Below are positions 14,351 to 57,788 of a stretch of DNA of 64,000 bases, one piece after another. The notes below the pieces were generated by a model. That model did no database searches. It had not been told where the DNA came from and was given only the letters and a program-made list of their open reading frames with translations. How positions within the stretch are numbered: the first letter of the stretch is position 1; the number at the start of each line of letters is the position of its first letter. Position numbers and translations under genes: made by a program. The DNA comes from an uncultured Candidatus Saccharibacteria bacterium (GTDB lineage: Bacteria > Patescibacteriota > Minisyncoccia > CAIUEV01 > JAHKAQ01): the NCBI GenBank assembly GCA_964598205.1, contig CAZRBB010000001.1:28199-92198 (forward strand), read 5' to 3'.

Positions 14351-14498
14351 CACGAACTGTTTCTTTGGTTATTCTCCTTGCATGATTGGAGGAATGGAAA
14401 ATTTAAAGAGAAGCTTAAAACTGGCCGGATTGGTCTTTTTCATGACTCTTTCTTTAAGTATTTTATTCTTTTTTGTTCCCGCTTTTTAATTAAAGCCC

Positions 14499-14615
14499 AT
14501 AGTCTTGGCGGTTCAAGCGACAAGGAAACACCTGATCCCATCCCGAACTCAGAAGTTAAGCTTGTCTGCGCCGATGGTAGCGCTTTTGCGCAAGAGTAGG
14601 CCATCGCCAAGACCA
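14499..14615 (+). rRNA. rrf: 5S ribosomal RNA
   Basis: Helix I AGTCTTGGCG/CGCCAAGAC and the conserved internal blocks CCTGATCCCATCCCGAACTCAGAAGTTAAGC, GCGCCGATGGTAGC and GAGTAGG. Flanking GCCCAT/ATGGGC extends helix I as a processing stem. Confidence 0.85.
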
Positions 14616-14658
14616 TGGGCTTTATTTGTTTCTGGAGTCCGGTTATAATCGAAGGGCT

Positions 14659-41324: not shown

Positions 41325-42833
41325 GTGGAAAAAATAAATGTCAACACTTTGTTTCCCTCCTCCCTATTTGCTAAAATTAAAGAGATGAAAAAAAAGCGGT
41401 CCCCAAAAAAAGCAAAATCAAAGTCAAAGCCAAAAGCCAAATCTCCTGCGCCTTCTGTTTTTAAAAAGAACATTGTTTTTTTAATTCTGGCAATCTGCCT
41501 GATCGCTGGTGGCATATTTCTTTTGGCAAAAAACCATCCGTCCTCCCCAAATTTTCCACTTCCTGTTCCCCAAAGATCCAAAGAAGCGATTTTGGAAGAC
41601 GCCAAAAAAGGAATAGAGAATCGTAAGCGCGACTTTACCGTTTCTAAGCTTAGGCCAGGAAAAACTTACGAATTAAAACAAGTGACCCAAAAATTTCCTT
41701 TTGGAACAGCGCTTTCTTTTAATTTATTATTTGCGCCGAAGGTTTTTTCTAAAAGTCACCCTAGCGGCTACCAAGCAATCATGGACTATCCCGGTGGCTA
41801 CCTTAGCGCTAAAAAAAATTACTTAAAAATATTTCAAGAAAATTTCAACGGTACTACCCCTGAAAACGCCTTTAAATGGGAGTTTATGAATTCACAAGAA
41901 AGAACCGACTGGCGCATTACCGATCAGGCACTGGGCTTTGTAAAGAAAGATCCCGTGCTTTTAGAAAATTTTCGCGGTCATTGTGTTTTTTGGAACAGAA
42001 AAGTTCGCCTACCAGATTATTTACAAAACGCTTCCCAAGAAGAAATAAGAGAAGCAGTTTTTTCCCAAAGGCTAGCCATGATCAAGCGCTATCCCCAAAT
42101 CAAAGAGTGGGATCTAATCAATGAACCAATTATTCGCCCAGCTTACCTTAAAGACGGTGTTGATCACATGGAAGTTGTTTTTGATCCCCAAAAAGACCTT
42201 GATTTTTTTGTTTCTCTTTTTATTGAGGCTCGGAAAATCAATCCCCAAGCACGATATTTTGTTAACGAAAACCTACTTTTAAGTGGCAAGAATACGCCAA
42301 AGATTATGCAATTTGTAAAAGCGTTGACCGAAAAAGGCGCCAAGCCAGACGGTATTGGTATAGAGGGGCATTTTTCTTCCGATTACAATCCGTTCACCTT
42401 AGAAACCGCCGAAAAGAATCTAAAAGAACTGGCCTCCTTGGGGCTTCCTCTAAAAATAACGGAATTAGATTTTCCCCGTTCTTCTTTTTTGGGGAGTGAA
42501 GATCCTGAGCAAAAACGCGCCACCTATTTAAAAGAAATGCTGACACTTTTTTACGGTACGCCTCAAATAGAAGGTATTTATTTTTGGGGATTTGCCGATC
42601 CGGTTCACTGGAAAGGCAATGAAGGTGCTGGCTTGTTTGATTCTGAATTAAAAATAAAAATAGCAGGCGAAGAATTTCAAAAACTGACCCAAGAAGAATG
42701 GGTTACCAAGGAAACCAAAACCGCCGAAGATAACGGAATCATCAACTTCCGCGGCTTTCCTGGCCGTTACCAAATTATAGATCAGGCTTCTGGGAGAAAA
42801 GTTAAAGAAGTAGTCTTAGAGGAGGCTCCTTGA
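41325..42833 (+). CDS. Membrane-anchored glycoside hydrolase, GH10-like (clan GH-A)
   Basis: Lys-rich N-region then a TM. Acid/base motif WDLINEP and nucleophile motif ITELD in the (beta/alpha)8 order typical of GH10. The Met at 41386 is an alternative start. Confidence 0.55.
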   Translation: MEKINVNTLFPSSLFAKIKEMKKKRSPKKAKSKSKPKAKSPAPSVFKKNIVFLILAICLIAGGIFLLAKNHPSSPNFPLPVPQRSKEAILEDAKKGIENRKRDFTVSKLRPGKTYELKQVTQKFPFGTALSFNLLFAPKVFSKSHPSGYQAIMDYPGGYLSAKKNYLKIFQENFNGTTPENAFKWEFMNSQERTDWRITDQALGFVKKDPVLLENFRGHCVFWNRKVRLPDYLQNASQEEIREAVFSQRLAMIKRYPQIKEWDLINEPIIRPAYLKDGVDHMEVVFDPQKDLDFFVSLFIEARKINPQARYFVNENLLLSGKNTPKIMQFVKALTEKGAKPDGIGIEGHFSSDYNPFTLETAEKNLKELASLGLPLKITELDFPRSSFLGSEDPEQKRATYLKEMLTLFYGTPQIEGIYFWGFADPVHWKGNEGAGLFDSELKIKIAGEEFQKLTQEEWVTKETKTAEDNGIINFRGFPGRYQIIDQASGRKVKEVVLEEAP

Positions 42834-42904
42834 TTATTATCTTGGTAGTTTCTTCGGACAGACTAAGAGCCGTGTCTGGCAGAAGAAACTACCAAGATAA
42901 TAAT
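42833..42904. terminator. Long perfect-palindrome bidirectional terminator
   Basis: 23-bp perfect inverted repeat ATTATTATCTTGGTAGTTTCTTC/GAAGAAACTACCAAGATAATAAT with a 26-nt loop that holds a nested CAGAC/GTCTG pair. Lies between two convergent genes. Confidence 0.65.
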
Positions 42905-42921
42905 CGGGAGTATCATCAAGC

Positions 42922-43950
42922 CTATTCCAGCCCCTTTTTAATCAAAAACCTGGCCTTTCTAATTTCTCGTTCCATTCTCTCTTTATCTTTCAATAGAAAG
43001 CGATTGAATTTTTTCCGTGTTTCTTCTGGCAAAATTGCAATGGCCTCTTTTATTTTTAGAGCCAAATCTTGGGAGTCTCTTTTTTGGGAAAAGATGGCGA
43101 TTTTAGAAAAGTAATGCCTTAGGGCGCCGGTATCGGTAGTAACAAAAACTTTTCTTAGGGCCAGTGCTTCTCTAATTGACCAAAGAACCGTTTTATTTCT
43201 TAGGGTTAAGCACAGCGCTACTTTGGAGCGAGCCATTAGTTTTAAAAATTCTATATGCTCCAAGTAGCCAGTAAAAATTAGGTTCGCAGGCAATCCTTCT
43301 TTTTCTTCCGATTCTAAAAGACCAGGATCTCCGGTTATAAAAAAATCCCAGTTAGGATTATTTTTAGCTGTTTCCCTAATAGTAGGGAAGTCATCGTCGT
43401 TCGGAGCAAAGCGGTTAACCACTAAAACGGGAAAAGTTGATTTTTCTATTTTTGCCGCCAGCTTCTTATTTTCTAATGGTTTCCCCAGTGCTCCTTTGTC
43501 CAAATCGGGTGTGGCAAACTGAACTTCTAAGGAAGGGACTTGCCAACGCCGTAGAATTTGTAAGTCAAATTTATTATGAGCAGTTACTATAATTGATTTT
43601 CTAAAAATAAATTTTCCAAAGAAATGAAAGTGTCGCCATTTTTTGCTTCTAAAAAAAACAGAATGATTATCTACTCCGAATTTAGTTTTTGGATAAAAAA
43701 AGGAAAAACAAGAAACAATTAAAATCGGTAAGAGTGGAGGATTTTGAATAAAAACGAATCTGGGCCGTTCGCGGAAAAGCCACTTTATAGTGCGCACGCT
43801 CTGCTCAAAATACCGAACCAAAAAATGAGCCCCAGGATTTTTAGCCTGAGCCAGAACCACTTGCAAACCCAATGCCAAAGCCAAGTTCCGGCTGAGTTGG
43901 TCTTCTCGTGGCCAAATTAAAAAGCATTTTTTATTCTCCAAAATTTTCAC
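42922..43950 (-). CDS. Glycosyltransferase (GT-B fold, family 1/4-like)
   Basis: Rossmann-like halves in GT-B arrangement, in a glycan gene context. Family assignment is tentative. Confidence 0.5.
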   Translation of the reverse strand: MKILENKKCFLIWPREDQLSRNLALALGLQVVLAQAKNPGAHFLVRYFEQSVRTIKWLFRERPRFVFIQNPPLLPILIVSCFSFFYPKTKFGVDNHSVFFRSKKWRHFHFFGKFIFRKSIIVTAHNKFDLQILRRWQVPSLEVQFATPDLDKGALGKPLENKKLAAKIEKSTFPVLVVNRFAPNDDDFPTIRETAKNNPNWDFFITGDPGLLESEEKEGLPANLIFTGYLEHIEFLKLMARSKVALCLTLRNKTVLWSIREALALRKVFVTTDTGALRHYFSKIAIFSQKRDSQDLALKIKEAIAILPEETRKKFNRFLLKDKERMEREIRKARFLIKKGLE

Positions 43951-47883: not shown

Positions 47884-48852
47884 CTACCAGATTACGCTCA
47901 TGTAGCAATTTTCTACCGCACAGGCATACGAGCACCGGCCGGTGGTGAGACTTGTGGTCAGCTCGCGGGCCTTGATCAATGCTTTTCGAAGCAGCCCATC
48001 AAGCCGTTCCTTTGTCCCGGTCCAGTTGCAAACCCCAACCTGTACCTCTTTGCCAGGGGCCCAATACTTAACCGTTACCAAATCTTGAGCACCTGCATCC
48101 TGCCCATAAATCACGCGGTATTCCTCAAGCCGCTCTTCGCCGATCTTGGTCCAGGCGCTTCCGATAGACGAAGTCTTGGGGCAGTCATCGCCAACGCAAC
48201 CGCCGGTCCTTGGCGCGTAACCAGTGCCCCCACTTCCGCCCGCATGACCGCCAGACCGTACGCCCTTGCCGCCAGATCCTCCGCTTCTTCTGCCTTTAAC
48301 ACCTTCGTCGCAGAGATTGGATTGCTTGGCAATCAGGAGATCCGTTTCGATTTTTTTTGCCAATATCAGGTCGGCCTCAATTTTTTTTGCGGTGATCAGC
48401 TCTGCCTCGATTTTTTTGGTATGGACTGATTCCGCTTCGAGCCGATTCACTTTCAGGCTGGGCTTCCGATTGGCATAGTACGCCTTCCGCAATTCCCGAC
48501 CCTTCTTTATCGCTATTTCCATGTCGTCCCGTGTTGTCGGGTGCCGCAACACCATCCCCGCCGGTAGGTTGTCCACCTGGGAAATGTTGAGCCCAGTATG
48601 CGCGGCAACGACCCACGCATTCCATCCTACTTTGTCGGAGTAACCCATCAGGGTTGCCCCGCTCGGCAGAGTCCCCTCGGCGATTACGCCCAGGGCGTCT
48701 ACAATGTTTTGCGTGTCCCCAGCAATCTTGTCCAGTTTTTCTTCCATGCGATCCAATTGATCGCTGTTCCCCAAGGCCAGAACTTCGGCCGTGGGTGCCC
48801 CTGTCAACGCCAACAAAAAAATCCCCAATACTACCAATGCCAGTTTTTTCAT
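47884..48852 (-). CDS. Secreted LysM-domain protein with 11-aa tandem repeats and a Gly-rich/Cys-rich C-terminal region; GC-rich island gene
   Basis: Signal peptide MKKLALVVLGIFLLALTGAPTA, a LysM-like block (GYSDKVGWNAWVVAAHTGLNISQVDNLPAGMVLRHP), repeats AKKIEA(E/D)LI(T/L), a GGSGG linker and a Cys-rich end. Local GC is visibly higher than the flanks and the third codon positions are GC-rich. Confidence 0.6.
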   Translation of the reverse strand: MKKLALVVLGIFLLALTGAPTAEVLALGNSDQLDRMEEKLDKIAGDTQNIVDALGVIAEGTLPSGATLMGYSDKVGWNAWVVAAHTGLNISQVDNLPAGMVLRHPTTRDDMEIAIKKGRELRKAYYANRKPSLKVNRLEAESVHTKKIEAELITAKKIEADLILAKKIETDLLIAKQSNLCDEGVKGRRSGGSGGKGVRSGGHAGGSGGTGYAPRTGGCVGDDCPKTSSIGSAWTKIGEERLEEYRVIYGQDAGAQDLVTVKYWAPGKEVQVGVCNWTGTKERLDGLLRKALIKARELTTSLTTGRCSYACAVENCYMSVIW

Positions 48853-49126
48853 GTTGCCTTCCTTTCATTTCATTCTCTTGTTGTTATTGTTCTTTCATTG
48901 TCTTTTTTCGCCTTTGGTCAACTTAACCAAACTGCCGTCAATTACAAATTTAAAACTACGAACAACAAAAAAATCCGCCATTCGTAATTTTAAATTCGTA
49001 ATTGAGCGTAGTTCGGTTAAGTCGACTTTCTAATTTTTAAAGATCGTTCCTGTCCTCCAGCTTTGGGTAAAAAATTTTCACCCAAGGCCGGAGAGAGGAG
49101 AAAAAATCTCCCCTCTTAGTATGTTT

Positions 49127-49924: not shown

Positions 49925-50042
49925 AAAACTTTTTTAAGAAATAAAGAGAACCCGCTATAAAAGCACATTTACTTAATTTAGTCAATAGCAGGGGAGTAGT
50001 TTTGTAATTGTGAGCCGCTCTCTCTAAAGTCCCAAGCTTTCA

Positions 50043-50202
50043 TAAATAGTTCCAGCTAGGGTTCCTTCTGGGGAGGCTTTTTGATCCGAGCGGGCCGGCT
50101 TCCCTTATAAGAGGGAAGAGCGAGGATCAAAACTTGAGCAAGCGAAGCCGCTGGGCGGAGCGCTGCGTACTCCCCAGAGGGAACCCTGGCTGGAACTATT
50201 TA
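50043..50202. ncRNA. Candidate structured RNA element, copy 1 of 2; unclassified family
   Basis: A 32-bp near-perfect outer inverted repeat encloses an inner hairpin and a short hairpin. These are followed by a 40-nt conserved single-stranded core, AAAACTTGAGCAAGCGAAGCCGCTGGGCGGAGCGCTGCGTACTC. Confidence 0.4.
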
Positions 50203-50231
50203 GCCCCCACCATTGACTAAATAGCAATTTT

Positions 50232-51707
50232 ATGCTTAAGTATTTGGTTTTCACCAGTTCCAGATCCTATTTTATTTTTGTTTCCAGTGTTATGGCAATT
50301 TCTGTTAAAAAATATCACCAGCTTTTAAATCTCTCTAAATTTTTAGTAGAAGTTTTGGCTGTTTTTTCCTTAATCCTGCTTATTTTCCAAAGATTAGGAG
50401 ATGATTCACTCTTTAAGCCACCATTCCCTAGCTCCTTTAATAGTTTTCTTTCTTTGGCCATTTTCTTTACTTTGATTCAAGCGCTTATCTTTATCTTTAT
50501 TGGTTTTTACAGAAGGGAACTTTCTTTCCTTAATTTTGAAGATTTAAAGAAAGCAATTCAGTCTCTTCTTTGGGGGAGTGTTCTTTTGCTTTTCTTTTTA
50601 CTTTATCGGGGAGAAGGGGAAAGCGCTTTCCACCTAGCTGCTCTTTATTTTGGCTTAGCCTTTGCGTTGATTAGCTCGGAACGGAGCTTTTTCTACGAAC
50701 TTAACAGACGAAATTATAAGAAAGGACTTTGGGTTAAAAAGGTAGCCATTTATGATGCTTGTCCTACCGGCCGACTTCTTTTAAAAAAACTTTTTGCTTC
50801 GCCTCAGTTAGGTTATTTACCAGTAGGCTTTATAGACAACAGAAGGAAGAAAGGCGTTCTAGTAAAAACGAACTCCGAAGAGACTAAAGCAGCGGTGCCT
50901 GTTCTAGGCAATATGGCTAACTTTGGGAGAATTATTAGGAAAAATCAAATAGAAGAATTGTTTATTGCCACGCCGGCCCTAAAAGGAGGAGATATTCAAC
51001 GCCTTGCTTTAAGCTGTAAAAGAGCCGGTATTGATTACCGTTTTGTTCCAAATCTCTTAAAAGAACCATTGCATCGGGCTACCTTACAATTCTTTGGGGA
51101 AATTCCTTTTATTAAGGCGGAAGAATTAAGAATCAATCTTTTAACCCTCTTTTTAAAAAGAGTTTTTGATTTAGCTTTTTCTGTTTTAGCGCTATTCTTT
51201 CTTTCTCCTGTTTTTCTTTTAATTTCTTACCTGATTAAAAAAGATTCACCTGGGCCGGTATTCTTTGGGCAAAAACGAGTTGGCAAAGACGGCCGGTTAT
51301 TTACAATGTACAAATTCCGCACCATGAAGGCTGGGGCCAAACATTATGAATATTCTCCTACTAATCATAAAGACCAAAGGATAACTCCTCTGGGTCGTTT
51401 TTTAAGACGAACTAGCTTAGACGAGTTGCCTCAATTTTTTAATTCCTTAAAAGGAGAAATGAGCGTTGTGGGTCCACGACCGGAAATGGAATTTATTGTT
51501 AAAAAATATACTGTTTACCAAAGAGAGCGGTTGCTTATAAAGCCGGGAATCACCGGCGTTTGGCAGGTAACAGCTGATCGTAAAAAACAAATTCACGAAA
51601 ACATGGATTACGATATTTATTACATTAAAAATGCCTCTTTGGTTTTAGACTTCTTGATTATTTTTCGGACTTTTTGGTTTGCAGTGCGGGGAATCGGCGG
51701 AATTTAA
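50232..51707 (+). CDS. Polyprenyl-phosphate hexose-1-phosphate transferase (WbaP/bacterial sugar transferase family), priming glycosyltransferase
   Basis: N-terminal TM helices plus a C-terminal sugar-transferase domain (KRVFDLAFSVLAL...FTMYKFRTM...LDELPQFFNSLKGEMSVVGPRP). Confidence 0.8.
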   Translation: MLKYLVFTSSRSYFIFVSSVMAISVKKYHQLLNLSKFLVEVLAVFSLILLIFQRLGDDSLFKPPFPSSFNSFLSLAIFFTLIQALIFIFIGFYRRELSFLNFEDLKKAIQSLLWGSVLLLFFLLYRGEGESAFHLAALYFGLAFALISSERSFFYELNRRNYKKGLWVKKVAIYDACPTGRLLLKKLFASPQLGYLPVGFIDNRRKKGVLVKTNSEETKAAVPVLGNMANFGRIIRKNQIEELFIATPALKGGDIQRLALSCKRAGIDYRFVPNLLKEPLHRATLQFFGEIPFIKAEELRINLLTLFLKRVFDLAFSVLALFFLSPVFLLISYLIKKDSPGPVFFGQKRVGKDGRLFTMYKFRTMKAGAKHYEYSPTNHKDQRITPLGRFLRRTSLDELPQFFNSLKGEMSVVGPRPEMEFIVKKYTVYQRERLLIKPGITGVWQVTADRKKQIHENMDYDIYYIKNASLVLDFLIIFRTFWFAVRGIGGI

Positions 51708-51716
51708 TTTAAGAAT

Positions 51717-52964
51717 ATGCCACCATTAAAACAATCAGCCATTAAAAAAATGTCAAAGAGAGTTTTATTTTTAATAGAAAATCTTTCTTTCCTTCAGGAT
51801 CGGCGAGTTGCCCAAGAAGCTCTAGCCGTTCAGTCTCTGGGCTGGCAAGTTTTTGTGGTTGCTCCTGGAAATAAAGATCAAAAGAAGGAAGAAAATATCA
51901 ACGGTATTTCTGTTTTTCGCTATCCCGCCAAAATTTTTCCTAGTGGTTTTTGGGGCTATTTCCAGGAATATACTTATGCTCTTTATCAAACATTTTTCTT
52001 GGCGTTAAAAATTTATTTTCGTCCTGGCGGTTTTTCGGTAATCCACGCCGCTAATCCCCCCGATCTGTTTTTCTTAATCGGTGCCTTTTTTAAAATCTTC
52101 GGTGTTCGCTTTATTTATGACCAGCACGATTTAGCTCCAGAAATGTTTTTAGCTAAGTTCAATACTTCTCGTACTCATTTGCTTTACTGGGCGACCCGTT
52201 TCGCAGAACGGCTTTCTTATCTTTTAGCCACTACTCACATTGCTACCTGTCAGGTAGGCTTGGATTTTTTTCTAAAAAGTCGCAACTTAAAGAATAAAAA
52301 AAGCCAAATAGTTAGAACTGCCCCCGATCTTTCTCTTTTAAATTCTTTTGGCGCTAACCCCAAACTTCTTAATCGCTTAACTGCCATTAAGAAAGATTTC
52401 CCTTATTTGGGAGTTTACTTAGGAGTAATGGGACATCAAGACGGATTAAGCAAGCTTCTTCGGAGCATTGAAATTTTTGTTAAAAAATCTAAAAGAAAAG
52501 ACATTGGTTTTCTTCTTTTGGGATCGGGCGACGCCCTAAACGATTTAAGAATTACTGTTGGAAAAATGGGACTAGAGAATCGAGTTTTTTTCCTTGGCTG
52601 GATGGAACCCAAAGAAACTGCTGCATGCTTGGAGGTAGCTGATTTTGGCTTAATGCCTGAACCAAAAAATGATTACACCGATTATTCGCTTCATAATAAA
52701 GTATTAGAATACTTAGCTTTTGGATTACCTTTTGTTTCTTACGACTTAAAAGAAGTTCAAAATAATGGCCACGCTGCCGCGCTTTATGCCAAGAATAATA
52801 ACGAAGAAGAGTATGCCGAGCTAATTAATCAAATGTTAAATAATCTAGATTCCCAAAAAAAGGAAGGCCAAAAAAGAAAAGCGGAAATTATGACTGACCA
52901 GTCTTTGAGTTGGGACAATTCAATAAAAACGCTAAAAGAAATTTATTTAAAGTTGGATAAATAA
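51717..52964 (+). CDS. Glycosyltransferase family 4
   Basis: GT-B fold, N-domain LFLIENLSF...VVAPG, C-domain with the EX7E-like region. Confidence 0.7.
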   Translation: MPPLKQSAIKKMSKRVLFLIENLSFLQDRRVAQEALAVQSLGWQVFVVAPGNKDQKKEENINGISVFRYPAKIFPSGFWGYFQEYTYALYQTFFLALKIYFRPGGFSVIHAANPPDLFFLIGAFFKIFGVRFIYDQHDLAPEMFLAKFNTSRTHLLYWATRFAERLSYLLATTHIATCQVGLDFFLKSRNLKNKKSQIVRTAPDLSLLNSFGANPKLLNRLTAIKKDFPYLGVYLGVMGHQDGLSKLLRSIEIFVKKSKRKDIGFLLLGSGDALNDLRITVGKMGLENRVFFLGWMEPKETAACLEVADFGLMPEPKNDYTDYSLHNKVLEYLAFGLPFVSYDLKEVQNNGHAAALYAKNNNEEEYAELINQMLNNLDSQKKEGQKRKAEIMTDQSLSWDNSIKTLKEIYLKLDK

Positions 52965-53011
52965 TTTTGTTGTGCTATAAAGCTTGGTTATTTTTCTTCT
53001 TAATTTAAAAC

Positions 53012-54244
53012 ATGAAAGATCCCAAAAAAATTCTTTTTATCACCAGCGCCTATTATGCTCCTTCTTATCGACGACTTTGGAAAAAAGCTGTTTCCTTAAA
53101 AAACGATGGCTATAAGGTGGCAGTAATTTGTCCCGCCGGAAAAAAGGGATTAAAAGAAACCAAGGAGCAGGGGATAAAAATTTATGGATTTAATAAAAAA
53201 ACAAAAAGAAATAGCGTTCTTGGTATTTTTTTAGGGGAGATTAGAGATTTGCTCTCTATGACTTCTTTGGTTCTTAGTGCCTATTCCAAAAGAGAGTTTG
53301 CAACTATTCACTTGGTTAATCCTTCGGATGTGGCAGTTTTTGCAGTGCTCTGGTTTAAGCTCTTAGGGTACCGTTTTGTTTACGAATCAAATGGTTCATT
53401 TTCTTCTCAAATTTATCGGGAAGAAAAACTTTCCCAATCAAGCGGTAAGTGGTTTCTGAATCTATTTTTAAAAAGTTCGCAAAAACTAGCTTTGTTTTTT
53501 TCTGACTGGGTGATTGTTCCTGACTGGCAAGAAAAGAAAAGACTCGTTGCCCTAGGGAAAAACAAAAGGCGCATCATCACTATCGAACCATTACCCGATC
53601 TAAAAGAATTTTACGACTTGTTGCCCCATCATCGTTACAAAATGGGTTTTTCTAAGGTAGCAATTTATGCTGGCGGTCTTAAGTTTTCTTCTGGTATTCT
53701 AAAACTACTTGTCGCCGTTGATTTTATTGTGAATCGTCTTTTAAGGAAAGATATTTTGTTTATTTTAGCTGGAGAAGGAAAAGATGAAGAACGATTAAAA
53801 AAGATTGTTCAAGAAAGGGGATTGGAAGGAAATGTTTTTTTCACTGGTTGGCTAAAACAAAAAAAATTATTAAATTACTTAGCCGCAGCAGATTTAGGAA
53901 TTATTCCCGAAGAAAATAATCTGGAAGGAAAGTTTCGGGATTCTGCTTTTGAATATTTAGCCGTAGGTAAGCCAATTGTTGCTTTTGATTTCCCTGGTGG
54001 AGAAGAAAAAATCGGTAAAGCTGGATCTTTTGTAAAAGATGGCAAAGAAATTTCCCTAGCTCGGGAAATTATTCGCTTAATAGATAACGAAGAACGAATC
54101 AAGGCCATGGGCTCGGTTGGGAGGCTTAAAGTTTCCCGTAATTTTAATTGGCTAAAATCAGAAATAGAATTGCTAGCTTTTTATGACCGTCTTTTTCCAA
54201 ACGACTCCTTCTTTAAAATTAGCAAAAAAGCACTCAAAATATAA
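53012..54244 (+). CDS. Glycosyltransferase family 4
   Basis: GT-B fold; ILFITSAYY...VAVICP N-domain and C-terminal donor-binding domain. Confidence 0.7.
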   Translation: MKDPKKILFITSAYYAPSYRRLWKKAVSLKNDGYKVAVICPAGKKGLKETKEQGIKIYGFNKKTKRNSVLGIFLGEIRDLLSMTSLVLSAYSKREFATIHLVNPSDVAVFAVLWFKLLGYRFVYESNGSFSSQIYREEKLSQSSGKWFLNLFLKSSQKLALFFSDWVIVPDWQEKKRLVALGKNKRRIITIEPLPDLKEFYDLLPHHRYKMGFSKVAIYAGGLKFSSGILKLLVAVDFIVNRLLRKDILFILAGEGKDEERLKKIVQERGLEGNVFFTGWLKQKKLLNYLAAADLGIIPEENNLEGKFRDSAFEYLAVGKPIVAFDFPGGEEKIGKAGSFVKDGKEISLAREIIRLIDNEERIKAMGSVGRLKVSRNFNWLKSEIELLAFYDRLFPNDSFFKISKKALKI

Positions 54245-54329
54245 GCTAAATACTACAAGTAGTTATTTTAAGTTTCCTTTTCCATGTCATGGTGTTAAAA
54301 TAAAAAATATAAAAATAAAAAATATTCTA

Positions 54330-55700
54330 ATGCGCTTTAAGGTCACTATTATTTTGTTTTCTTTTATCGTCCCCCTCTTCTTTTTGGGTGTGTTCGGCTT
54401 TTTCCCTTCTTCGGCTTTTTCTGCTTCTGATGCCTCAGAAGAAAAAGACGATCAGGAGCTTTATTTGGATTACCAAGGCTATTTAAGGTATCAAAAATAT
54501 AAAGACTATAAAGAAGCCAAAGAGAAATACGGATTCAAAACCACGCAAATCAAGAATGACTACAAAAACAAATACAGTCTGTATAAAGCCAATCCCAAAA
54601 AATACGCCAGCTATTACGACGCTTATAAACGCTATAAAAATTACAAGAACAAGTACAGCGAAAAATATGCTGGCTATGATCAATATAAAAAATATTACGA
54701 CAAGGGCTGGAAGTACCAAAAATACGGCAAGAAAAAATATAAAGATGGCTATAACCGATACCAATTAGCATTAAAGAACAAAACAACAGGAGGAACTATC
54801 GCCTCCGGCTCTACTGGACCAGAAATCACTGTCGGAATTTTAAAGTACGAAAAAAATTATTCCAAAGATCACGCTTTCCGTTTTCGGGCGAACAAAGACT
54901 ATGCGGTTAAGGATTCTGCCGGGAATTCAATTGCTTTAGTTTCTAGCTCTAAGGAAACCAGCGTTAAATACGTTAGCAGTAGTAAGCTAAGAGTTTATGG
55001 GGAAGGTTTTGATACAGAAGTTAACGAGCAAGTTGATTTCGTTGCCTTAGACGGCAATAACGACGATTTAATTTTCAATGTTGACCCCAATCCTAAGTAC
55101 AGTTTTGACGATTATCGAGGGAAAATAAGAGTGCGCTATTCTAATGATTCAAGCCAGGTGTGGGTTATTAATATGCTCCCCTTGGAACAGTACGCTTGGG
55201 GAATGGGAGAGATTACTGGCACTGGTGCCATGGAATATAACAAGGTAATGTCTTTAACTTTCCGCACCTATGGTTATTGGAAAATAAAATATAGTACGCG
55301 TTATACCGAAGAAGGCTTTAAGGTAGATGCTACCGCTAACAGTCAAATTTATTACGGTTACGACTGGGAGTTAGATCATCCTCGTATTAAAGAAGCTGTC
55401 CAAGCCACTCGCGGTCAGATAGTAAAATACAAAGACCGAATTGCGATTACTCCCTACTCATCTTCTACCGACGGTCGCACTCGTTCTTGGAAAGAAAGAT
55501 GGGGAAGTGACAACTATCCTTGGTGTGTATCGGTAGAAGATCCTTATGGTAAGGTAGACGGTGCCGGCTCTATTGAAGGCAATCATATGGTTGGTCTTTC
55601 GGCTCGCGGTGCCTTAAAACTGGCAGACGACCACGGCTGGGGTTACGAAAAAATCTTAAAGTATTACTATACTGGAATTGATTTAGAAACTGTCTATTAA
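54330..55700 (+). CDS. Secreted SpoIID/LytB-domain protein with a Tyr/Lys-rich low-complexity region
   Basis: Signal peptide, about 110 aa of YK-rich repeats (KYxxYKxYKNKY...), then SpoIID/LytB blocks (NMLPLEQYAWGMGEI...ITPYSSSTDGRTRSWKERWGSDNYPWCVSVEDPYG). Start moved to Met 54330. Confidence 0.6.
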   Translation: MRFKVTIILFSFIVPLFFLGVFGFFPSSAFSASDASEEKDDQELYLDYQGYLRYQKYKDYKEAKEKYGFKTTQIKNDYKNKYSLYKANPKKYASYYDAYKRYKNYKNKYSEKYAGYDQYKKYYDKGWKYQKYGKKKYKDGYNRYQLALKNKTTGGTIASGSTGPEITVGILKYEKNYSKDHAFRFRANKDYAVKDSAGNSIALVSSSKETSVKYVSSSKLRVYGEGFDTEVNEQVDFVALDGNNDDLIFNVDPNPKYSFDDYRGKIRVRYSNDSSQVWVINMLPLEQYAWGMGEITGTGAMEYNKVMSLTFRTYGYWKIKYSTRYTEEGFKVDATANSQIYYGYDWELDHPRIKEAVQATRGQIVKYKDRIAITPYSSSTDGRTRSWKERWGSDNYPWCVSVEDPYGKVDGAGSIEGNHMVGLSARGALKLADDHGWGYEKILKYYYTGIDLETVY

Positions 55701-55710
55701 TCTAAACGCA

Positions 55711-56232
55711 ATGAGCTTTAAAAAAGTATTTTTAGCGGTTGTGGTTTTAACTGTATTAGCTTACGGAGGCTATGTTTATAAAGACCGTTTTTGGGAAACC
55801 CAAAAAACTCAAACCAAGGAAGAAACAAGGCCTGAGTTTAACAAATCGTCAAAAGATCCTTCTTCCTTAGACCAAGCTCCAACCAATCCGGATAATTCTG
55901 GCGATCTTCCAAAAGAAACAACTCCCGAAGAAACCGAAACCCAAACAGAAGCTGTCTTAGAAGACTATTTAAAAGACTGCGATAATAAATGTGAGTCATT
56001 TTTTGGTGCCCAACTAGATCGCTGTTTAGAAATTTGTCGAATAAAAGGATCTTCTCCAGAAGAAGACGGATCCATTGAGTCTTGCGAATCAAAAACAGGA
56101 GAAGAAAAAGATTTTTGTTTAAAGAATCAAGCAGTCAAGGAAAAAAAAGAGTCTCTTTGTAAAGAAATAAGCAATCAAGCTGTTAGGGAAGCTTGCTTTA
56201 ACGCTGTTGCCGAAACAATTCTTGACCGATGA
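55711..56232 (+). CDS. Small secreted Cys-rich hypothetical protein
   Basis: Signal peptide, acidic region, 10 Cys in CxxxC-like spacing. Confidence 0.4.
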   Translation: MSFKKVFLAVVVLTVLAYGGYVYKDRFWETQKTQTKEETRPEFNKSSKDPSSLDQAPTNPDNSGDLPKETTPEETETQTEAVLEDYLKDCDNKCESFFGAQLDRCLEICRIKGSSPEEDGSIESCESKTGEEKDFCLKNQAVKEKKESLCKEISNQAVREACFNAVAETILDR

Positions 56233-56840
56233 TTAAAAGCAATATTTTCCCAGATCTGCCGTTTTCACAAGCAAAAGTTGGCCCAAAGATGGCTGTTTCC
56301 GGAGAGCATTCGGTTTATCGTTATGGTGACAAAGAAGTGATTAAGTTTCCTGCTGGGCCAATCCATTATGCTAATAATGAAGAGGCTTATCGCAAAATTT
56401 TGAATGAATTTCAATTAGCTAAAAGGTATTTAGGAGAATTTATTGCTCCGGCTAGCATTTTCACTTACAAAAAGAACAACAAAAAAGCTTACTGTATTAT
56501 TCAAAAGTTTATTAAGGGGACTCCTTTAAAAATAGAAGATCTTCAAAATAAAGATTTAAAGGAGAAGCTGGAAGAGTTGATTAAGGCTAATCGAGAGATG
56601 CGCATTAACACCGGATATTCTTTTGAGTTTTTTGGTATTAGGGGACTTTTTTTCCACCGATTTTTAAAAAAAATGGAAAATGTTTTAGTGGATGAATCGG
56701 GAAATTTAAAAATAATTGATTTTGGAATGATTTCCGAAATTAACATGGTTTCTAGTTCTCCAGTTTTGCGGTCTTTTATTCAATGGGCCCTAAAAAGACA
56801 GAGCAAAATTCTAAAAGAGAGCTATCTTGCCATAGAATAG
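56229..56840 (+). CDS. Protein-kinase-like fold protein, possibly a pseudokinase
   Basis: VIKFP (VAIK-like), HRFLKKMEN in place of the HRDLKxxN catalytic loop (Asp replaced by Phe), and a DFG motif (IIDFGM). Confidence 0.4.
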   Translation: MIKSNIFPDLPFSQAKVGPKMAVSGEHSVYRYGDKEVIKFPAGPIHYANNEEAYRKILNEFQLAKRYLGEFIAPASIFTYKKNNKKAYCIIQKFIKGTPLKIEDLQNKDLKEKLEELIKANREMRINTGYSFEFFGIRGLFFHRFLKKMENVLVDESGNLKIIDFGMISEINMVSSSPVLRSFIQWALKRQSKILKESYLAIE

Positions 56841-56866
56841 GGCAAATGGTATGCTGATGGAAAATT

Positions 56867-56896
56867 AAGTGCATTAAAAATAAAAATAAAAATAAA
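56867..56896. repeat. Hexanucleotide microsatellite (AAAAAT)x5
   Basis: Seen directly, immediately upstream of the start codon at 56904. Confidence 0.8.
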
Positions 56897-56903
56897 AATA
56901 AAA

Positions 56904-57260
56904 ATGAAGTCAAAAACAAAGCCAAGAGAAGAATTTAGCGGACATGCCCAAAGAGGAAAAGAATGGTCAGATGTAATCAAGGATTGGATTTTTGACCACC
57001 TAAAGGCGTTTACTTCATTGTTGGTGGCAGAAACCGGAAAAGAAATTAAGAATCGTCTTCGCGATTTCCTCTCCATGGTCAATAAGGCATTTATTTCTTC
57101 ACTGATGGTTTTTTTGGGGGTGGTTTTTTTAATGGTCGGAATGGCTCTTATTCTAAATGAATTATTCAATATTTCGGGTGGCCTAGGCTTTATCTTGGTG
57201 GGTATTTTATCTGTTTTTTTAGGGGTGGTGGTTCGAGAAGAATTAAAGCAACAAAAATAA
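56904..57260 (+). CDS. Small membrane protein (holin-like topology)
   Basis: 118 aa, amphipathic N-terminus then two TM helices. Confidence 0.4.
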   Translation: MKSKTKPREEFSGHAQRGKEWSDVIKDWIFDHLKAFTSLLVAETGKEIKNRLRDFLSMVNKAFISSLMVFLGVVFLMVGMALILNELFNISGGLGFILVGILSVFLGVVVREELKQQK

Positions 57261-57282
57261 TTTAAATAATTTAAATAAAAAA

Positions 57283-57555
57283 ATGGATTTTAAAAAAAAG
57301 GACATTGAAAAAAAAGCCAAAGAAATCAAAGACAAAGCCAAAGAAGTGACAGAAGGAATTCAAGAAAGAGCAGTGGAATTAAAAAAGGAAGCTAAGAAGA
57401 ATATTGAAAAAGCCAAGAAAGATTTCCAAATTGCAGAAAAAAAGGTTAAGGATTACATGGAGAAGAATCCAGCCAAAGCAGCAGCTATTGCCGCTGGAAT
57501 TGGGGCAGTGATTGGTGCCGGATTAGCAGCCATGATTGGAAGAAAAAGAAAATAA
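57283..57555 (+). CDS. DUF883/YqjD-like C-tail-anchored membrane protein
   Basis: 90 aa with a Lys/Glu-rich helical N-terminus and a C-terminal Gly/Ala-rich TM anchor (AAIAAGIGAVIGAGLAAMIG). Confidence 0.45.
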   Translation: MDFKKKDIEKKAKEIKDKAKEVTEGIQERAVELKKEAKKNIEKAKKDFQIAEKKVKDYMEKNPAKAAAIAAGIGAVIGAGLAAMIGRKRK

Positions 57556-57572: not shown

Positions 57573-57603
57573 AAAACACCCTCGATTTTTCGGGGGTGTT
57601 TTT
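57573..57603 (+). terminator. Intrinsic terminator
   Basis: ACACCCTCG-ATTTTT-CGGGGGTGT hairpin followed by a T run. Confidence 0.6.
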
Positions 57604-57637
57604 ATTTAAGATAGAAAGACCATGATTGGAGAATAAA

Positions 57638-57781
57638 GCTAAGAGGGCGTGCCTGTTTTGTTGAGGCTTTTTCATTCGAGTGGGCCGGTTTTCCGAAGGA
57701 AAGAGCTCGAATGAAAACTGAGCAAGCGGAGCCGCTGGGCGAAGCGAAGCGTACTCAACAAAACAGGCACGCCCTCTTAGC
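57638..57781. ncRNA. Candidate structured RNA element, copy 2 of 2; unclassified family
   Basis: 28-bp perfect outer inverted repeat with a different sequence from copy 1; an inner 12-bp stem, a short hairpin and the same conserved core AAAACTGAGCAAGCGGAGCCGCTGGGCGAAGCGAAGCGTACTC. Confidence 0.4.
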
Positions 57782-57788
57782 TTCTGGT

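What the first reader, a model, noticed from the sequence alone, without database searches (positions are those of the whole stretch)
50043..50202. Unclassified highly structured intergenic element with a conserved core (copy 1 of 2)
- Two loci, this one and 57638..57781, share a roughly 95-nt core; the shared sequence is GAGGCTTTTT, a stem, GGGCCGG, a hairpin, AGC, a stem, AAAAC, GAGCAAGCG(A/G)AGCCGCTGGGCG(G/A)AGCG and GTACTC.
- Every helix differs in sequence between the copies yet stays fully paired. The outer stem is 32 bp AAATAGTTCCAGCTAGGGTTCCTTCTGGGGAG here and 28 bp GCTAAGAGGGCGTGCCTGTTTTGTTGAG in copy 2. The inner stem is TTTTTGATCC/GGATCAAAA here and TTTTTCATTCGAG/CTCGAATGAAAA there. 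The hairpin is CTTCCCT/AGGGAAG here and TTTCC/GGAAA there.
- Compensatory change of that kind is the classic signature of selection on RNA secondary structure, not of a transposon inverted repeat; a MITE would conserve its termini.
- Copy 1 sits in a divergent promoter region of the glycan locus. Copy 2 sits between convergent gene ends, after an intrinsic terminator.
- I could not match it to SRP RNA, 6S RNA, RNase P RNA, tmRNA or a T-box.
Basis: seen in the sequence. Interest (0 to 1): 0.85.

Follow-up and report, generated by a model that had tools for sequence, protein, structure and literature searches.

The report
Orphan structured RNA-like element, two copies
Two copies of a 150-160-base, strongly folded, GC-rich element bracket a cell-envelope sugar operon in an uncultivated Patescibacteria bacterium; it matches no known RNA family and is most likely a new, lineage-restricted structured RNA, though a selfish palindromic DNA element is not excluded.

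Summary
Copy 1 (50043-50202) and copy 2 (57636-57783) share an 88-94-nt core closed by a 33-bp and a 30-bp helix of unrelated sequence.

**Evidence for a folded RNA**
- All helices stay paired: 97.6% of cells, with 10 pairs changed on both sides.
- All four wobble pairs are G·U on the + strand.
- The only two substitutions in the invariant 27-nt block face each other (A·G to G·A).
- The core is 53-60% GC in a genome of about 38% GC.

**Searches**
- No Rfam family matches.
- No third copy was found in about 92 kb of this genome or in about 200 kb from the nearest relatives.
- Exact-pattern scans of viral, metagenome and genome collections returned only chance hits.

**Context**
- The orthologous intergenic regions in relatives are short and empty, so both copies are lineage-specific gains.
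- Copy 1 lies between two conserved back-to-back promoters, not in the operon's 5' UTR.
- Copy 2 lies between a terminator and the stop codon of fmt.

**Verdict**
- Best reading (0.42): an undescribed + strand structured RNA, a three-way junction on an RNase III-type stem.
- Rivals: a selfish palindromic element, or an operon-boundary module.
- With two clonal sequences, covariation statistics and transcription cannot be tested.
- Interest is moderate.

The parts
50043..50075 (+). Copy 1, P1 5' arm (33 nt)
   Evidence: Inverted repeat I2. It pairs with 50170-50202, and the two non-Watson-Crick positions are G·U on the + strand (sequence).
50076..50078 (+). Copy 1, junction GCU (invariant)
   Evidence: Alignment A2 columns 16-18.
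50079..50091 (+). Copy 1, P2 5' arm (13 nt; pairs with 50120-50132; tandem G·A/A·G at 50088-50089)
   Evidence: The same 13-pair length is found in copy 2, where the G·A pairs are G-C and A-U.
50092..50098 (+). Copy 1, invariant 7-nt bulge GGGCCGG
50099..50118 (+). Copy 1, P3 hairpin (7 bp, loop UAUAAG)
50120..50132 (+). Copy 1, P2 3' arm
50133..50169 (+). Copy 1, 3' domain: junction CUUGA, the P4 arm (50138-50166) and junction GUA. P4 is 2 bp, a loop, 2 bp, a GAA/GGA 3x3 purine loop, 3 bp and a GCUG loop.
   Evidence: The P4 helices are invariant. The A/G and G/A differences at columns 85 and 98 face each other.
50170..50202 (+). Copy 1, P1 3' arm
57636..57665 (+). Copy 2, P1 5' arm (30 nt, perfect)
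   Evidence: Inverted repeat I3.
57666..57753 (+). Copy 2 core. Its parts are GCU (57666-57668), P2 (57669-57681 with 57705-57717), the GGGCCGG bulge (57682-57688), P3 (57689-57703, loop GAA), junction CUGA (57718-57721), the P4 arm (57722-57750) and GUA (57751-57753).
57754..57783 (+). Copy 2, P1 3' arm; it ends 6 nt before the fmt stop codon (57789)
49957..49985 (-). Context: conserved promoter of the Wzz-like gene (rc TTGACT-N17-TTTTAT), to the left of copy 1
   Evidence: Sequence, compared with the same motif in relatives L209, L212 and L213.
50213..50241 (+). Context: conserved promoter of the Bac_transf glycan operon (TTGACT-N17-TTAAGT). It starts 11 nt after copy 1 ends, so copy 1 is not in the operon leader.
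   Evidence: Sequence, compared with relatives.
57576..57607 (.). Context: intrinsic, apparently bidirectional terminator between the 90-aa gene and copy 2
   Evidence: Read from the sequence: a 9-bp stem ACACCCUCG/CGGGGGUGU, then UUUUAUUU. The tool scan did not list it.

Best explanation
The two loci are paralogous copies of a previously undescribed structured RNA. It is restricted to one sparsely sampled Patescibacteria lineage and is read from the + strand.

**Proposed structure**
- The RNA folds into a three-way junction.
- One arm is a fixed-length 13-bp helix carrying an invariant GGGCCGG bulge and a variable hairpin.
- A second arm is purine-rich and sequence-invariant.
- The junction is closed by an unusually long, perfect helix of 30-33 bp.

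**Proposed mechanism (inferred, not shown)**
- The long helix is a substrate for a double-strand-specific RNase such as RNase III.
- It works like the 23-bp stem that encloses the 5S rRNA gene in the same window, releasing or stabilising a core RNA of about 95-115 nt.
- The invariant unpaired nucleotides of that core bind a protein or another ligand in trans.
- It is not a leader or riboswitch of the glycan operon.
For: **Shown**
- Structure is kept through sequence change in P1, P2 and P3: 97.6% of cells paired, 10 double changes, and slid controls at 36-52%. RNAalifold independently recovers the same helices.
- All four wobble positions are G·U on the + strand and none is A·C. The + strand is more stable than the - strand: -99.2 against -86.8, and -83.0 against -78.0 kcal/mol.
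- Divergence is graded. About 10% of unpaired and P4 positions differ, about 26% of P2/P3 positions, and about 47% of inner P1 positions. This counts from A2 and indicates selection on both sequence and structure since the copies split.
- The only two substitutions in the 27-nt invariant block lie opposite each other in the predicted P4 loop, as an A·G to G·A swap. The chance of this is about 1 in 26.
- The core is 53-60% GC in a genome of about 38% GC. This is a classical mark of structured RNA in AT-rich genomes (my own knowledge).
- The 5S rRNA gene in the same window is enclosed by a comparable extended stem.
- No transposase, integrase, reverse transcriptase or Nop-domain gene lies within about 10 kb.
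- Copy 1 lies upstream of the conserved operon promoter. This excludes a leader role.

**Inferred**
- Transcription, RNase III cleavage and action in trans.
Against: - No sigma-70-like promoter at the tool's threshold precedes either copy on the + strand. The best candidates score only 8 of 12. The neighbouring operon promoters, by contrast, are canonical.
- No terminator follows either copy.
- No homolog was found anywhere else, so there is no phylogenetic covariation.
- The orthologous intergenic regions in relatives are empty. That pattern fits a recent insertion as well as a new gene.
- Perfect 30-33-bp helices of unrelated sequence are unusual for a conserved RNA gene. DNA-level palindrome dynamics could also produce them.
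- The P4 helices never vary, so they have no covariation support.
Confidence: 0.42

Rival explanations
1. It is a selfish, non-autonomous palindromic DNA element, a MITE-like or foldback repeat. It may be mobilised or copied as folded single-stranded DNA, and it landed in two harmless sites. The long outer arms would come from the target or from template-switch extension of the palindrome. The internal structure would be needed only for the element's own propagation.
For: - Both sites are 'safe harbours': one lies between divergent -35 boxes, the other between a terminator and a convergent stop codon.
- The orthologous intergenic regions are short and empty in relatives. The fmt region is 6 and 36 nt there against 233 nt here. 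The promoter spacing is 39-40 nt there against 227 nt here.
- Neither copy has its own canonical promoter or terminator.
- The two copies are only 7.6 kb apart and on the same strand, as local hopping would give.
- Relatives carry their own palindromic repeat families.
- G·T pairs are tolerated in folded single-stranded DNA too (my own knowledge).
Against: - The termini are not conserved between the copies; the outer arms are about 43% identical.
- There is no target-site duplication.
- Only two copies exist in about 92 kb.
- No transposase or other mobility gene is nearby.
- The core is GC-rich, branched and highly conserved, and it contains non-palindromic purine loops. That is atypical for MITEs.
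- Five independent contigs show no polymorphism.
Confidence: 0.25
2. It is a cis-acting boundary module of the eight-gene + strand operon (50292-57555) that the copies bracket. The modules would be RNase III-cleavable or exonuclease-blocking hairpins, or transcriptional insulators, that define or protect the two ends of the operon transcript.
For: - The only two copies in about 92 kb sit just outside the first and last gene of one operon, on the operon's strand.
- Long perfect helices are RNase III substrates and barriers to 3' exonucleases (my own knowledge).
- Other long strand-specific hairpins occupy intergenic regions of this genome.
Against: - Copy 1 lies upstream of the conserved operon promoter, so main-promoter transcripts lack it.
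- Copy 2 lies beyond a strong intrinsic terminator.
- A plain hairpin would be enough for this role. The conserved branched core would be left unexplained.
Confidence: 0.17
3. It is a DNA-level site. It could be an invertible promoter segment (inverton) upstream of a glycan operon, or a pair of direct recombination sites that allow excision of the operon.
For: - It has inverted repeats of 30-33 bp around a segment of about 90 bp next to a polysaccharide locus, as in Bacteroides capsule invertons (my own knowledge).
- The two copies are direct repeats flanking 7.4 kb.
Against: - The inverted repeats differ completely between the copies, so no shared recombinase site exists there.
- The internal helices covary and all wobbles are strand-specific. 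A double-stranded DNA site does not need either.
- No recombinase gene lies within about 10 kb.
- All contigs have one orientation and no deletion variant.
- The operon promoter lies outside the element.
Confidence: 0.05

Closest known systems
Processing stems of stable RNA precursors (rRNA, including the 5S rRNA gene at 14504-14612 in this window)
   Same: A long helix is formed by sequences flanking a compact structured RNA. About 90 nt are enclosed here, against 94 nt between the 5S arms. The helix is long enough for RNase III.
   Different: - The enclosed RNA belongs to no known family.
- The helix is longer and perfect (30-33 bp against 23 bp with mismatches).
- Cleavage is untested.
Palindromic intergenic repeats / MITEs transcribed into RNase III-sensitive hairpins (Correia elements, ERIC/IRU; my own knowledge)
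   Same: - Both are about 150 nt and intergenic, and fold into a long hairpin.
- Both are present in one lineage and absent from the same site in relatives.
   Different: - The ends are not conserved, while the centre is.
- There is no target duplication.
- There are only two copies.
- The core is GC-rich and branched.
TIGR stem-loop arrays (TIGR-Tas; PMC12045711)
   Same: These occur in CPR bacteria and phages. Their units are closed by 'variable but consistently palindromic' stems around conserved motifs.
   Different: - Here there are no box C/D motifs and no 8-12-nt variable spacers, because the interior is conserved.
- There is no tandem array and no Nop-domain gene nearby.
6S RNA
   Same: - The size is 150-185 nt.
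- Both have a long closing stem.
- Some genomes carry two divergent paralogs.
- Both lie in intergenic regions.
   Different: - There is no large two-sided central bubble; the 5' junction strand is 3 nt.
- There is no match to the Rfam 6S model, even at E up to 10 in a search of about 160 nt.
Orphan complex-folded RNA motifs found in GC-rich intergenic regions of AT-rich genomes (Breaker/Weinberg-type candidates; my own knowledge)
   Same: - It forms a GC-rich island in an AT-rich genome.
- It has a multi-helix junction with invariant unpaired nucleotides.
- It has no known function.
   Different: Those motifs are defined by many representatives with statistical covariation. This one has two.

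Membership tests
Any Rfam 15 family (6S, SRP, RNase P, tmRNA, T-box, riboswitches, self-cleaving ribozymes, RAGATH and others) | A covariance-model score at or above the family's gathering threshold | tested here: not met
   - The whole window at gathering threshold gave only 5S rRNA and 4 tRNAs.
- Scans of each copy at E up to 10 gave only generic miRNA-hairpin noise, and no family was shared by both copies.
MITE | Terminal inverted repeats conserved between copies | tested here: not met
   The outer arms are unrelated, at about 43% identity when aligned from the inner end. Only GAG/CUC and a few inner pairs are shared.
MITE | Target-site duplication flanking each copy | tested here: not met
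   The flanks are ...TTTCA|...|GCCCC... for copy 1 and ...GAATA|...|CTGGT... for copy 2. There is no direct repeat.
MITE | Many dispersed copies in the genome | tested here: inconclusive
   Two copies were found in about 92 kb of this genome (and 79 with filters off). The rest of the genome could not be fetched.
MITE | Presence/absence at orthologous sites | tested here: met
   The orthologous intergenic regions in relatives are empty. These relatives are distant, at 47-59% protein identity, so the test is weak.
Integron attC site | Conserved outer R''/R' boxes, a variable centre, and an integron integrase with a cassette array | tested here: not met
   The pattern here is the reverse: variable ends and a conserved centre. 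No integrase gene is in the neighbourhood.
Inverton (invertible promoter) | A shared recombinase site in the inverted repeats, both orientations in the population, and an invertase gene | tested here: not met
   - The inverted repeats differ between the copies.
- All independent contigs are identical in orientation.
- No recombinase gene lies within about 10 kb.
TIGR stem-loop array | Box C (RUGAUGA) and box D (CUGA) motifs, two variable 8-12-nt spacers, tandem units, and an adjacent Nop-domain Tas gene | tested here: not met
   - There is no conserved C/D pair; CUGA occurs only in copy 2.
- The interior is conserved, not variable.
- The units are 7.6 kb apart.
- No Nop domain was found.
Retron ncRNA (msr-msd) | An adjacent reverse transcriptase gene | tested here: not met
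   The neighbouring genes are Wzz-like, Bac_transf, GT4, SpoIID, fmt and def. No reverse transcriptase is present.
RNase III substrate (processing stem) | Uninterrupted double-stranded RNA of about 20 bp or more | tested here: met
   P1 is 33 bp including 2 G·U in copy 1, and 30 bp in copy 2.
RNase III substrate (processing stem) | The RNA is made and is cut with a 2-nt 3' overhang | not testable with these tools
   No transcriptome data are available.

The most novel reading that the evidence does not exclude
The conserved core is a protein-binding scaffold, and the long, perfectly paired, copy-specific outer stem is the working part. The unit would be a bacterial short-hairpin-type or guide-type RNA. 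Its 30-33-bp duplex would be diced or loaded to give sequence-specific small RNAs. This would be analogous in logic to the variable-stem units of TIGR arrays or to pri-miRNAs, and would represent a new programmable RNA system in CPR bacteria.
Probability: 0.05. Interest if true: 0.9.

Novelty: new variant of a known kind. Interest (0 to 1): 0.45.

Why it matters
If it is a functional RNA, it adds a new complex-folded RNA class from the Candidate Phyla Radiation. These are organisms with tiny genomes, where non-coding DNA is scarce and so likely to be useful.

The unusual feature is an invariant branched core combined with a very long perfect closing helix whose sequence is free to change. That combination could report on RNase III-dependent maturation of small RNAs in these bacteria.

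If it is instead a selfish element, it would be a structure-defined rather than sequence-defined palindromic repeat, which is also uncommon.

Either way the value is limited for now. Only two copies from one clonal population are known, and there is no expression data.

Tried and rejected
**Homolog searches**
- Exact-pattern scans in IMG/VR used three core patterns. They gave only chance hits in coding DNA.
- The metagenome scan with GCAAGCGNAGCCGCTGGGCG gave 58 hits. All were GC-rich coding DNA lacking the other motifs. The source contigs are not in that collection.
None carried the 3' block. The pattern was too loose, and I cannot say whether the source genome was reached.
- BLAST of the cores against phage and plasmid records found no match.

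**Further copies in this genome and its relatives**
- I searched model R1 over the window plus 28 kb of flanks reached by walking. I also searched about 200 kb of syntenic loci from the closest relatives found through fmt, Bac_transf and a 542-aa protein. Only the two known copies matched.
- With filters off, only generic hairpins appeared.

**Readings considered and dropped**
- Guide or spacer reading: the P1 arms have no match longer than 11 nt in 84 kb and none in IMG/VR.
- Coding reading: no frame is open with a start codon in both copies, and the 1-nt indel shifts the frame. This was read by hand.
- Replication origin: there is no global GC-skew switch near 50 kb.
- tRNA or tmRNA: none is present at the loci.
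- 5S-like, SRP-like and hammerhead-like resemblances were checked by eye and by Rfam. None held in both copies.
- Strain variation: all contigs from four JGI samples and from Logan runs are 100% identical, so there is no population-level covariation.

Full report
**1. What is there**

- Copy 1 spans 50043-50202. Its outer inverted repeat is 33 nt, and its two imperfect positions are both G·U on the + strand.
- Copy 2 spans 57636-57783 with a perfect 30-nt outer repeat.
- Between the arms lie 94 and 88 nt that are about 90% identical outside the helices.
- The 27-nt block GAGCAAGCGRAGCCGCTGGGCGRAGCG occurs exactly twice in the window, against zero expected.
- Both copies fold about 10 standard deviations better than dinucleotide shuffles.

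**2. Structure**

I derived a common structure by hand on alignment A2. RNAalifold recovers the same P1, distal P2, P3 and P4 helices.

- **P1:** the long closing helix.
- **Junction:** GCU.
- **P2:** exactly 13 pairs in both copies. Copy 1 has a tandem G·A/A·G where copy 2 has G-C/A-U.
- **Bulge:** an invariant 7-nt GGGCCGG.
- **P3:** a variable hairpin of 7 bp with a 6-nt loop in copy 1, and 6 bp with a 3-nt loop in copy 2.
- **3' arm (P4):** sequence-invariant. It runs 2 bp, an internal loop, 2 bp, a 3x3 purine loop GRA/GRA, 3 bp and a GCUG loop.
- **Junction:** GUA.

RNAalifold prefers to pair GCUU with GAGC at the junction. All those positions are invariant, so the two junction topologies cannot be told apart.

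On this structure 97.6% of cells are standard pairs, against 36-52% when the partners are slid. Ten pairs changed on both sides: 7 in inner P1, 2 in P2 and 1 in P3.

The only two substitutions inside the 27-nt block sit opposite each other in the purine loop. They are A·G in copy 1 and G·A in copy 2. For two random hits that has a chance of about 1 in 26.

**3. Strand**

- All four wobble positions are G·U on the + strand: two in P1 of copy 1, and one each in P2 and P3 of copy 2. On the - strand they would be A·C mismatches.
- The + strand folds better: -99.2 against -86.8, and -83.0 against -78.0 kcal/mol.
- This favours a + strand single-stranded molecule. RNA is the simplest reading, but folded single-stranded DNA would tolerate G·T as well.

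**4. Known families**

- Rfam 15 gives nothing at gathering thresholds apart from 5S rRNA and four tRNAs elsewhere in the window.
- Permissive scans of each copy alone return only generic long-hairpin (miRNA precursor) noise. No family is common to both copies.
- ARAGORN finds no tRNA or tmRNA there.

**5. Organism and distribution**

The window comes from a Patescibacteria (CPR) genome seen as one clonal sequence in several JGI samples and Logan runs. All contigs are 100% identical.

It has no close relatives in the protein collection.
- The best non-self fmt is 50% identical.
- The best Bac_transf is 57-59% identical.
- A conserved 542-aa protein reaches 59-69% identity in Moranbacteria-type MAGs.

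Covariance model R1 finds only the two known copies.
- It was searched over the window plus 28 kb of additional flanks of this genome. A search with filters off gave only generic hairpins.
- It finds nothing in about 200 kb of syntenic loci from the relatives.

Exact-pattern scans gave only chance hits in GC-rich coding DNA.
- These covered IMG/VR, the metagenome collection and the genome collection. The hits were checked.
So these negatives are weak.
- Phage and plasmid BLAST searches were also negative.

**6. Context**

*Copy 1.* The Wzy, radical-SAM, Wzz-like | Bac_transf, GT4, GT4 arrangement is syntenic in the relatives.
- In those relatives the Wzz-like gene and the transferase operon are driven by back-to-back canonical promoters (TTGACT-N17-TTATAT on each strand).
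- Their -35 boxes are 39-40 nt apart in L209 and L213. In L212 they are about 215 nt apart, separated by plain AT-rich DNA.
- The same two promoters are present in the window: the rc -35 box at 49980-49985 and the + strand -35 box at 50213-50218. Here they are 227 nt apart.
- Copy 1 occupies 160 of those nucleotides. It therefore lies upstream of both promoters, not in the glycan operon's 5' UTR.
- It follows that the transferase starts at ATG 50292, as JGI called it, and not at 50232.

*Copy 2.* It lies between a strong, apparently bidirectional intrinsic terminator (57576-57607) and the fmt stop codon (57789).
- In relatives the same convergent junction is 6 nt (L201) or 36 nt (L203), against 233 nt here.

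*Both copies.*
- Both are lineage-specific additions at positions where extra DNA does no harm.
- They are on the same strand, 7.6 kb apart. They bracket exactly the eight-gene + strand operon (50292-57555).
- No transposase, integrase, reverse transcriptase or Nop-domain gene is within about 10 kb.
- No + strand promoter reaches the scan threshold in front of either copy. The best candidates I can read are 8 of 12 matches: TTGTAA-N17-TAAAGT at 50002-50030, and TTTAAG-N18-GAGAAT at 57605-57634.

**7. Interpretation**

Divergence between the copies is graded. About 10% of unpaired and P4 positions differ, about 26% of P2/P3 positions, and about 47% of inner P1 positions, always preserving pairing.

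This shows that sequence and structure have both been under selection since the copies separated. They are not fresh duplicates. Four features point to a functional structured RNA:
- the + strand wobble bias;
- the high G+C in an AT-rich genome;
- the fixed-length P2 and the invariant bulge and junction nucleotides;
- the facing purine swap.

A perfect duplex of 30-33 bp would be cut by RNase III in any bacterium that makes it (my own knowledge). The stand-alone 5S rRNA gene of this window is enclosed by a similar 23-bp extended stem.

I therefore propose that P1 is a processing or stability stem, and that the working molecule is the core of about 95-115 nt acting in trans. I put this at 0.42. 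Transcription, cleavage and the trans role are inferences.

**8. Rivals**

*Selfish palindromic element (0.25).* This explains the empty orthologous sites, the safe-harbour positions, the missing promoters and the proximity of the copies. Its difficulties are:
- the ends are not conserved;
- there is no target duplication;
- there are only two copies;
- the core is GC-rich and branched;
- no mobility gene is nearby.

A structure-recognised, single-stranded-DNA-based element would still fit. Template-switch extension of a palindrome could account for perfect, unrelated outer arms (my own knowledge).

*Operon-boundary module (0.17).* This is suggested by the bracketing. But copy 1 is upstream of the operon promoter, copy 2 is beyond its terminator, and a simple hairpin would do that job.

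*DNA-level inverton or recombination site (0.05).* This is contradicted by four findings:
- the inverted repeats are unrelated between the copies;
- the covariation is internal and strand-specific;
- every contig has the same orientation;
- no recombinase is nearby.

*Programmable-stem reading, prompted by the TIGR stem-loop arrays of CPR and phage (PMC12045711).* The arms match nothing in 84 kb or in IMG/VR, and box C/D motifs, spacers, tandem arrays and a Tas gene are all missing. I keep it only as the low-probability novel case.

**9. Verdict**

- The feature is real, strongly structured and unclassified.
- It fails the membership tests for every named family I considered.
- It is best called a new, orphan member of the broad kind 'complex-folded intergenic RNA-like element'.
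- Only two sequences from one clone exist, and no expression data are available. The central claim that it is a functional RNA therefore remains a well-motivated hypothesis.
- Interest is moderate (0.45).

Noticed in passing
window 14488-14627: The 5S rRNA gene (14504-14612) stands alone, with no 23S rRNA in the window. A 23-bp inverted repeat that extends helix I encloses it, with 94 nt between the arms. It looks like a processing stem.
   Followed up: partly
window 48917-49026: A hairpin of about 55 bp lies between the 322-aa ORF and the Wzz-like gene, which are both on the minus strand. It is far more stable on the minus strand (-63.5 against -43.2 kcal/mol). That means many G·U pairs on the transcribed strand, so it is an RNA-level structure of unknown role.
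   Followed up: partly
window 42832-42905: A 32-bp hairpin with a 10-nt loop starts right at the stop codon of the + gene 41325-42833. That gene is convergent with 42922-43950 (-). The hairpin is more stable on the + strand and has no T-tract. Similar long hairpins sit between convergent genes in relatives, for example L213 12428-12494.
   Followed up: partly
window 49957-49985 and 50213-50241; L209 4040-4150; L212 1060-1345; L213 6120-6235: Back-to-back canonical promoters (TTGACT-N17-T(T/A)xxxT) for the Wzz-like gene and the Bac_transf operon are conserved across distant relatives. They imply that the transferase starts at ATG 50292 rather than 50232.
   Followed up: yes
window 47884-48852 (-): This ORF is about 50% G+C in a genome of about 38% G+C. 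It has an internal KKIE(A/T)(E/D)L repeat and a Gly/Ser-rich stretch, and no Pfam match. It may be foreign or fast-evolving.
   Followed up: no
L213 3540-3609 and 4067-4133; L202 317-401, 6777-6835, 13680-13746, 14770-14855: The relatives carry their own families of palindromic intergenic repeats with conserved ends: an AACAACCCTG...CAGGGTTGTT type, a GGACTGTCCC type, and an ATCTCGTAT tandem type. These are unlike the element studied here.
   Followed up: no
L198 17279-18907 (-) and 20222-21850 (+): Two 542-residue ORFs lie 1.3 kb apart on opposite strands, neither with a Pfam hit. The + strand one has 59-69% identical homologs in Moranbacteria-type MAGs. Whether the two ORFs are paralogs was not tested.
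   Followed up: no
window 57576-57607: A clear intrinsic terminator is visible here: a 9-bp stem with a 6-nt loop, followed by UUUUAUUU. The terminator scan did not list it. Its reverse complement is also followed by a T-run, so it probably also terminates fmt-def. The antisense of copy 2 would then be part of the fmt 3' UTR.
   Followed up: partly
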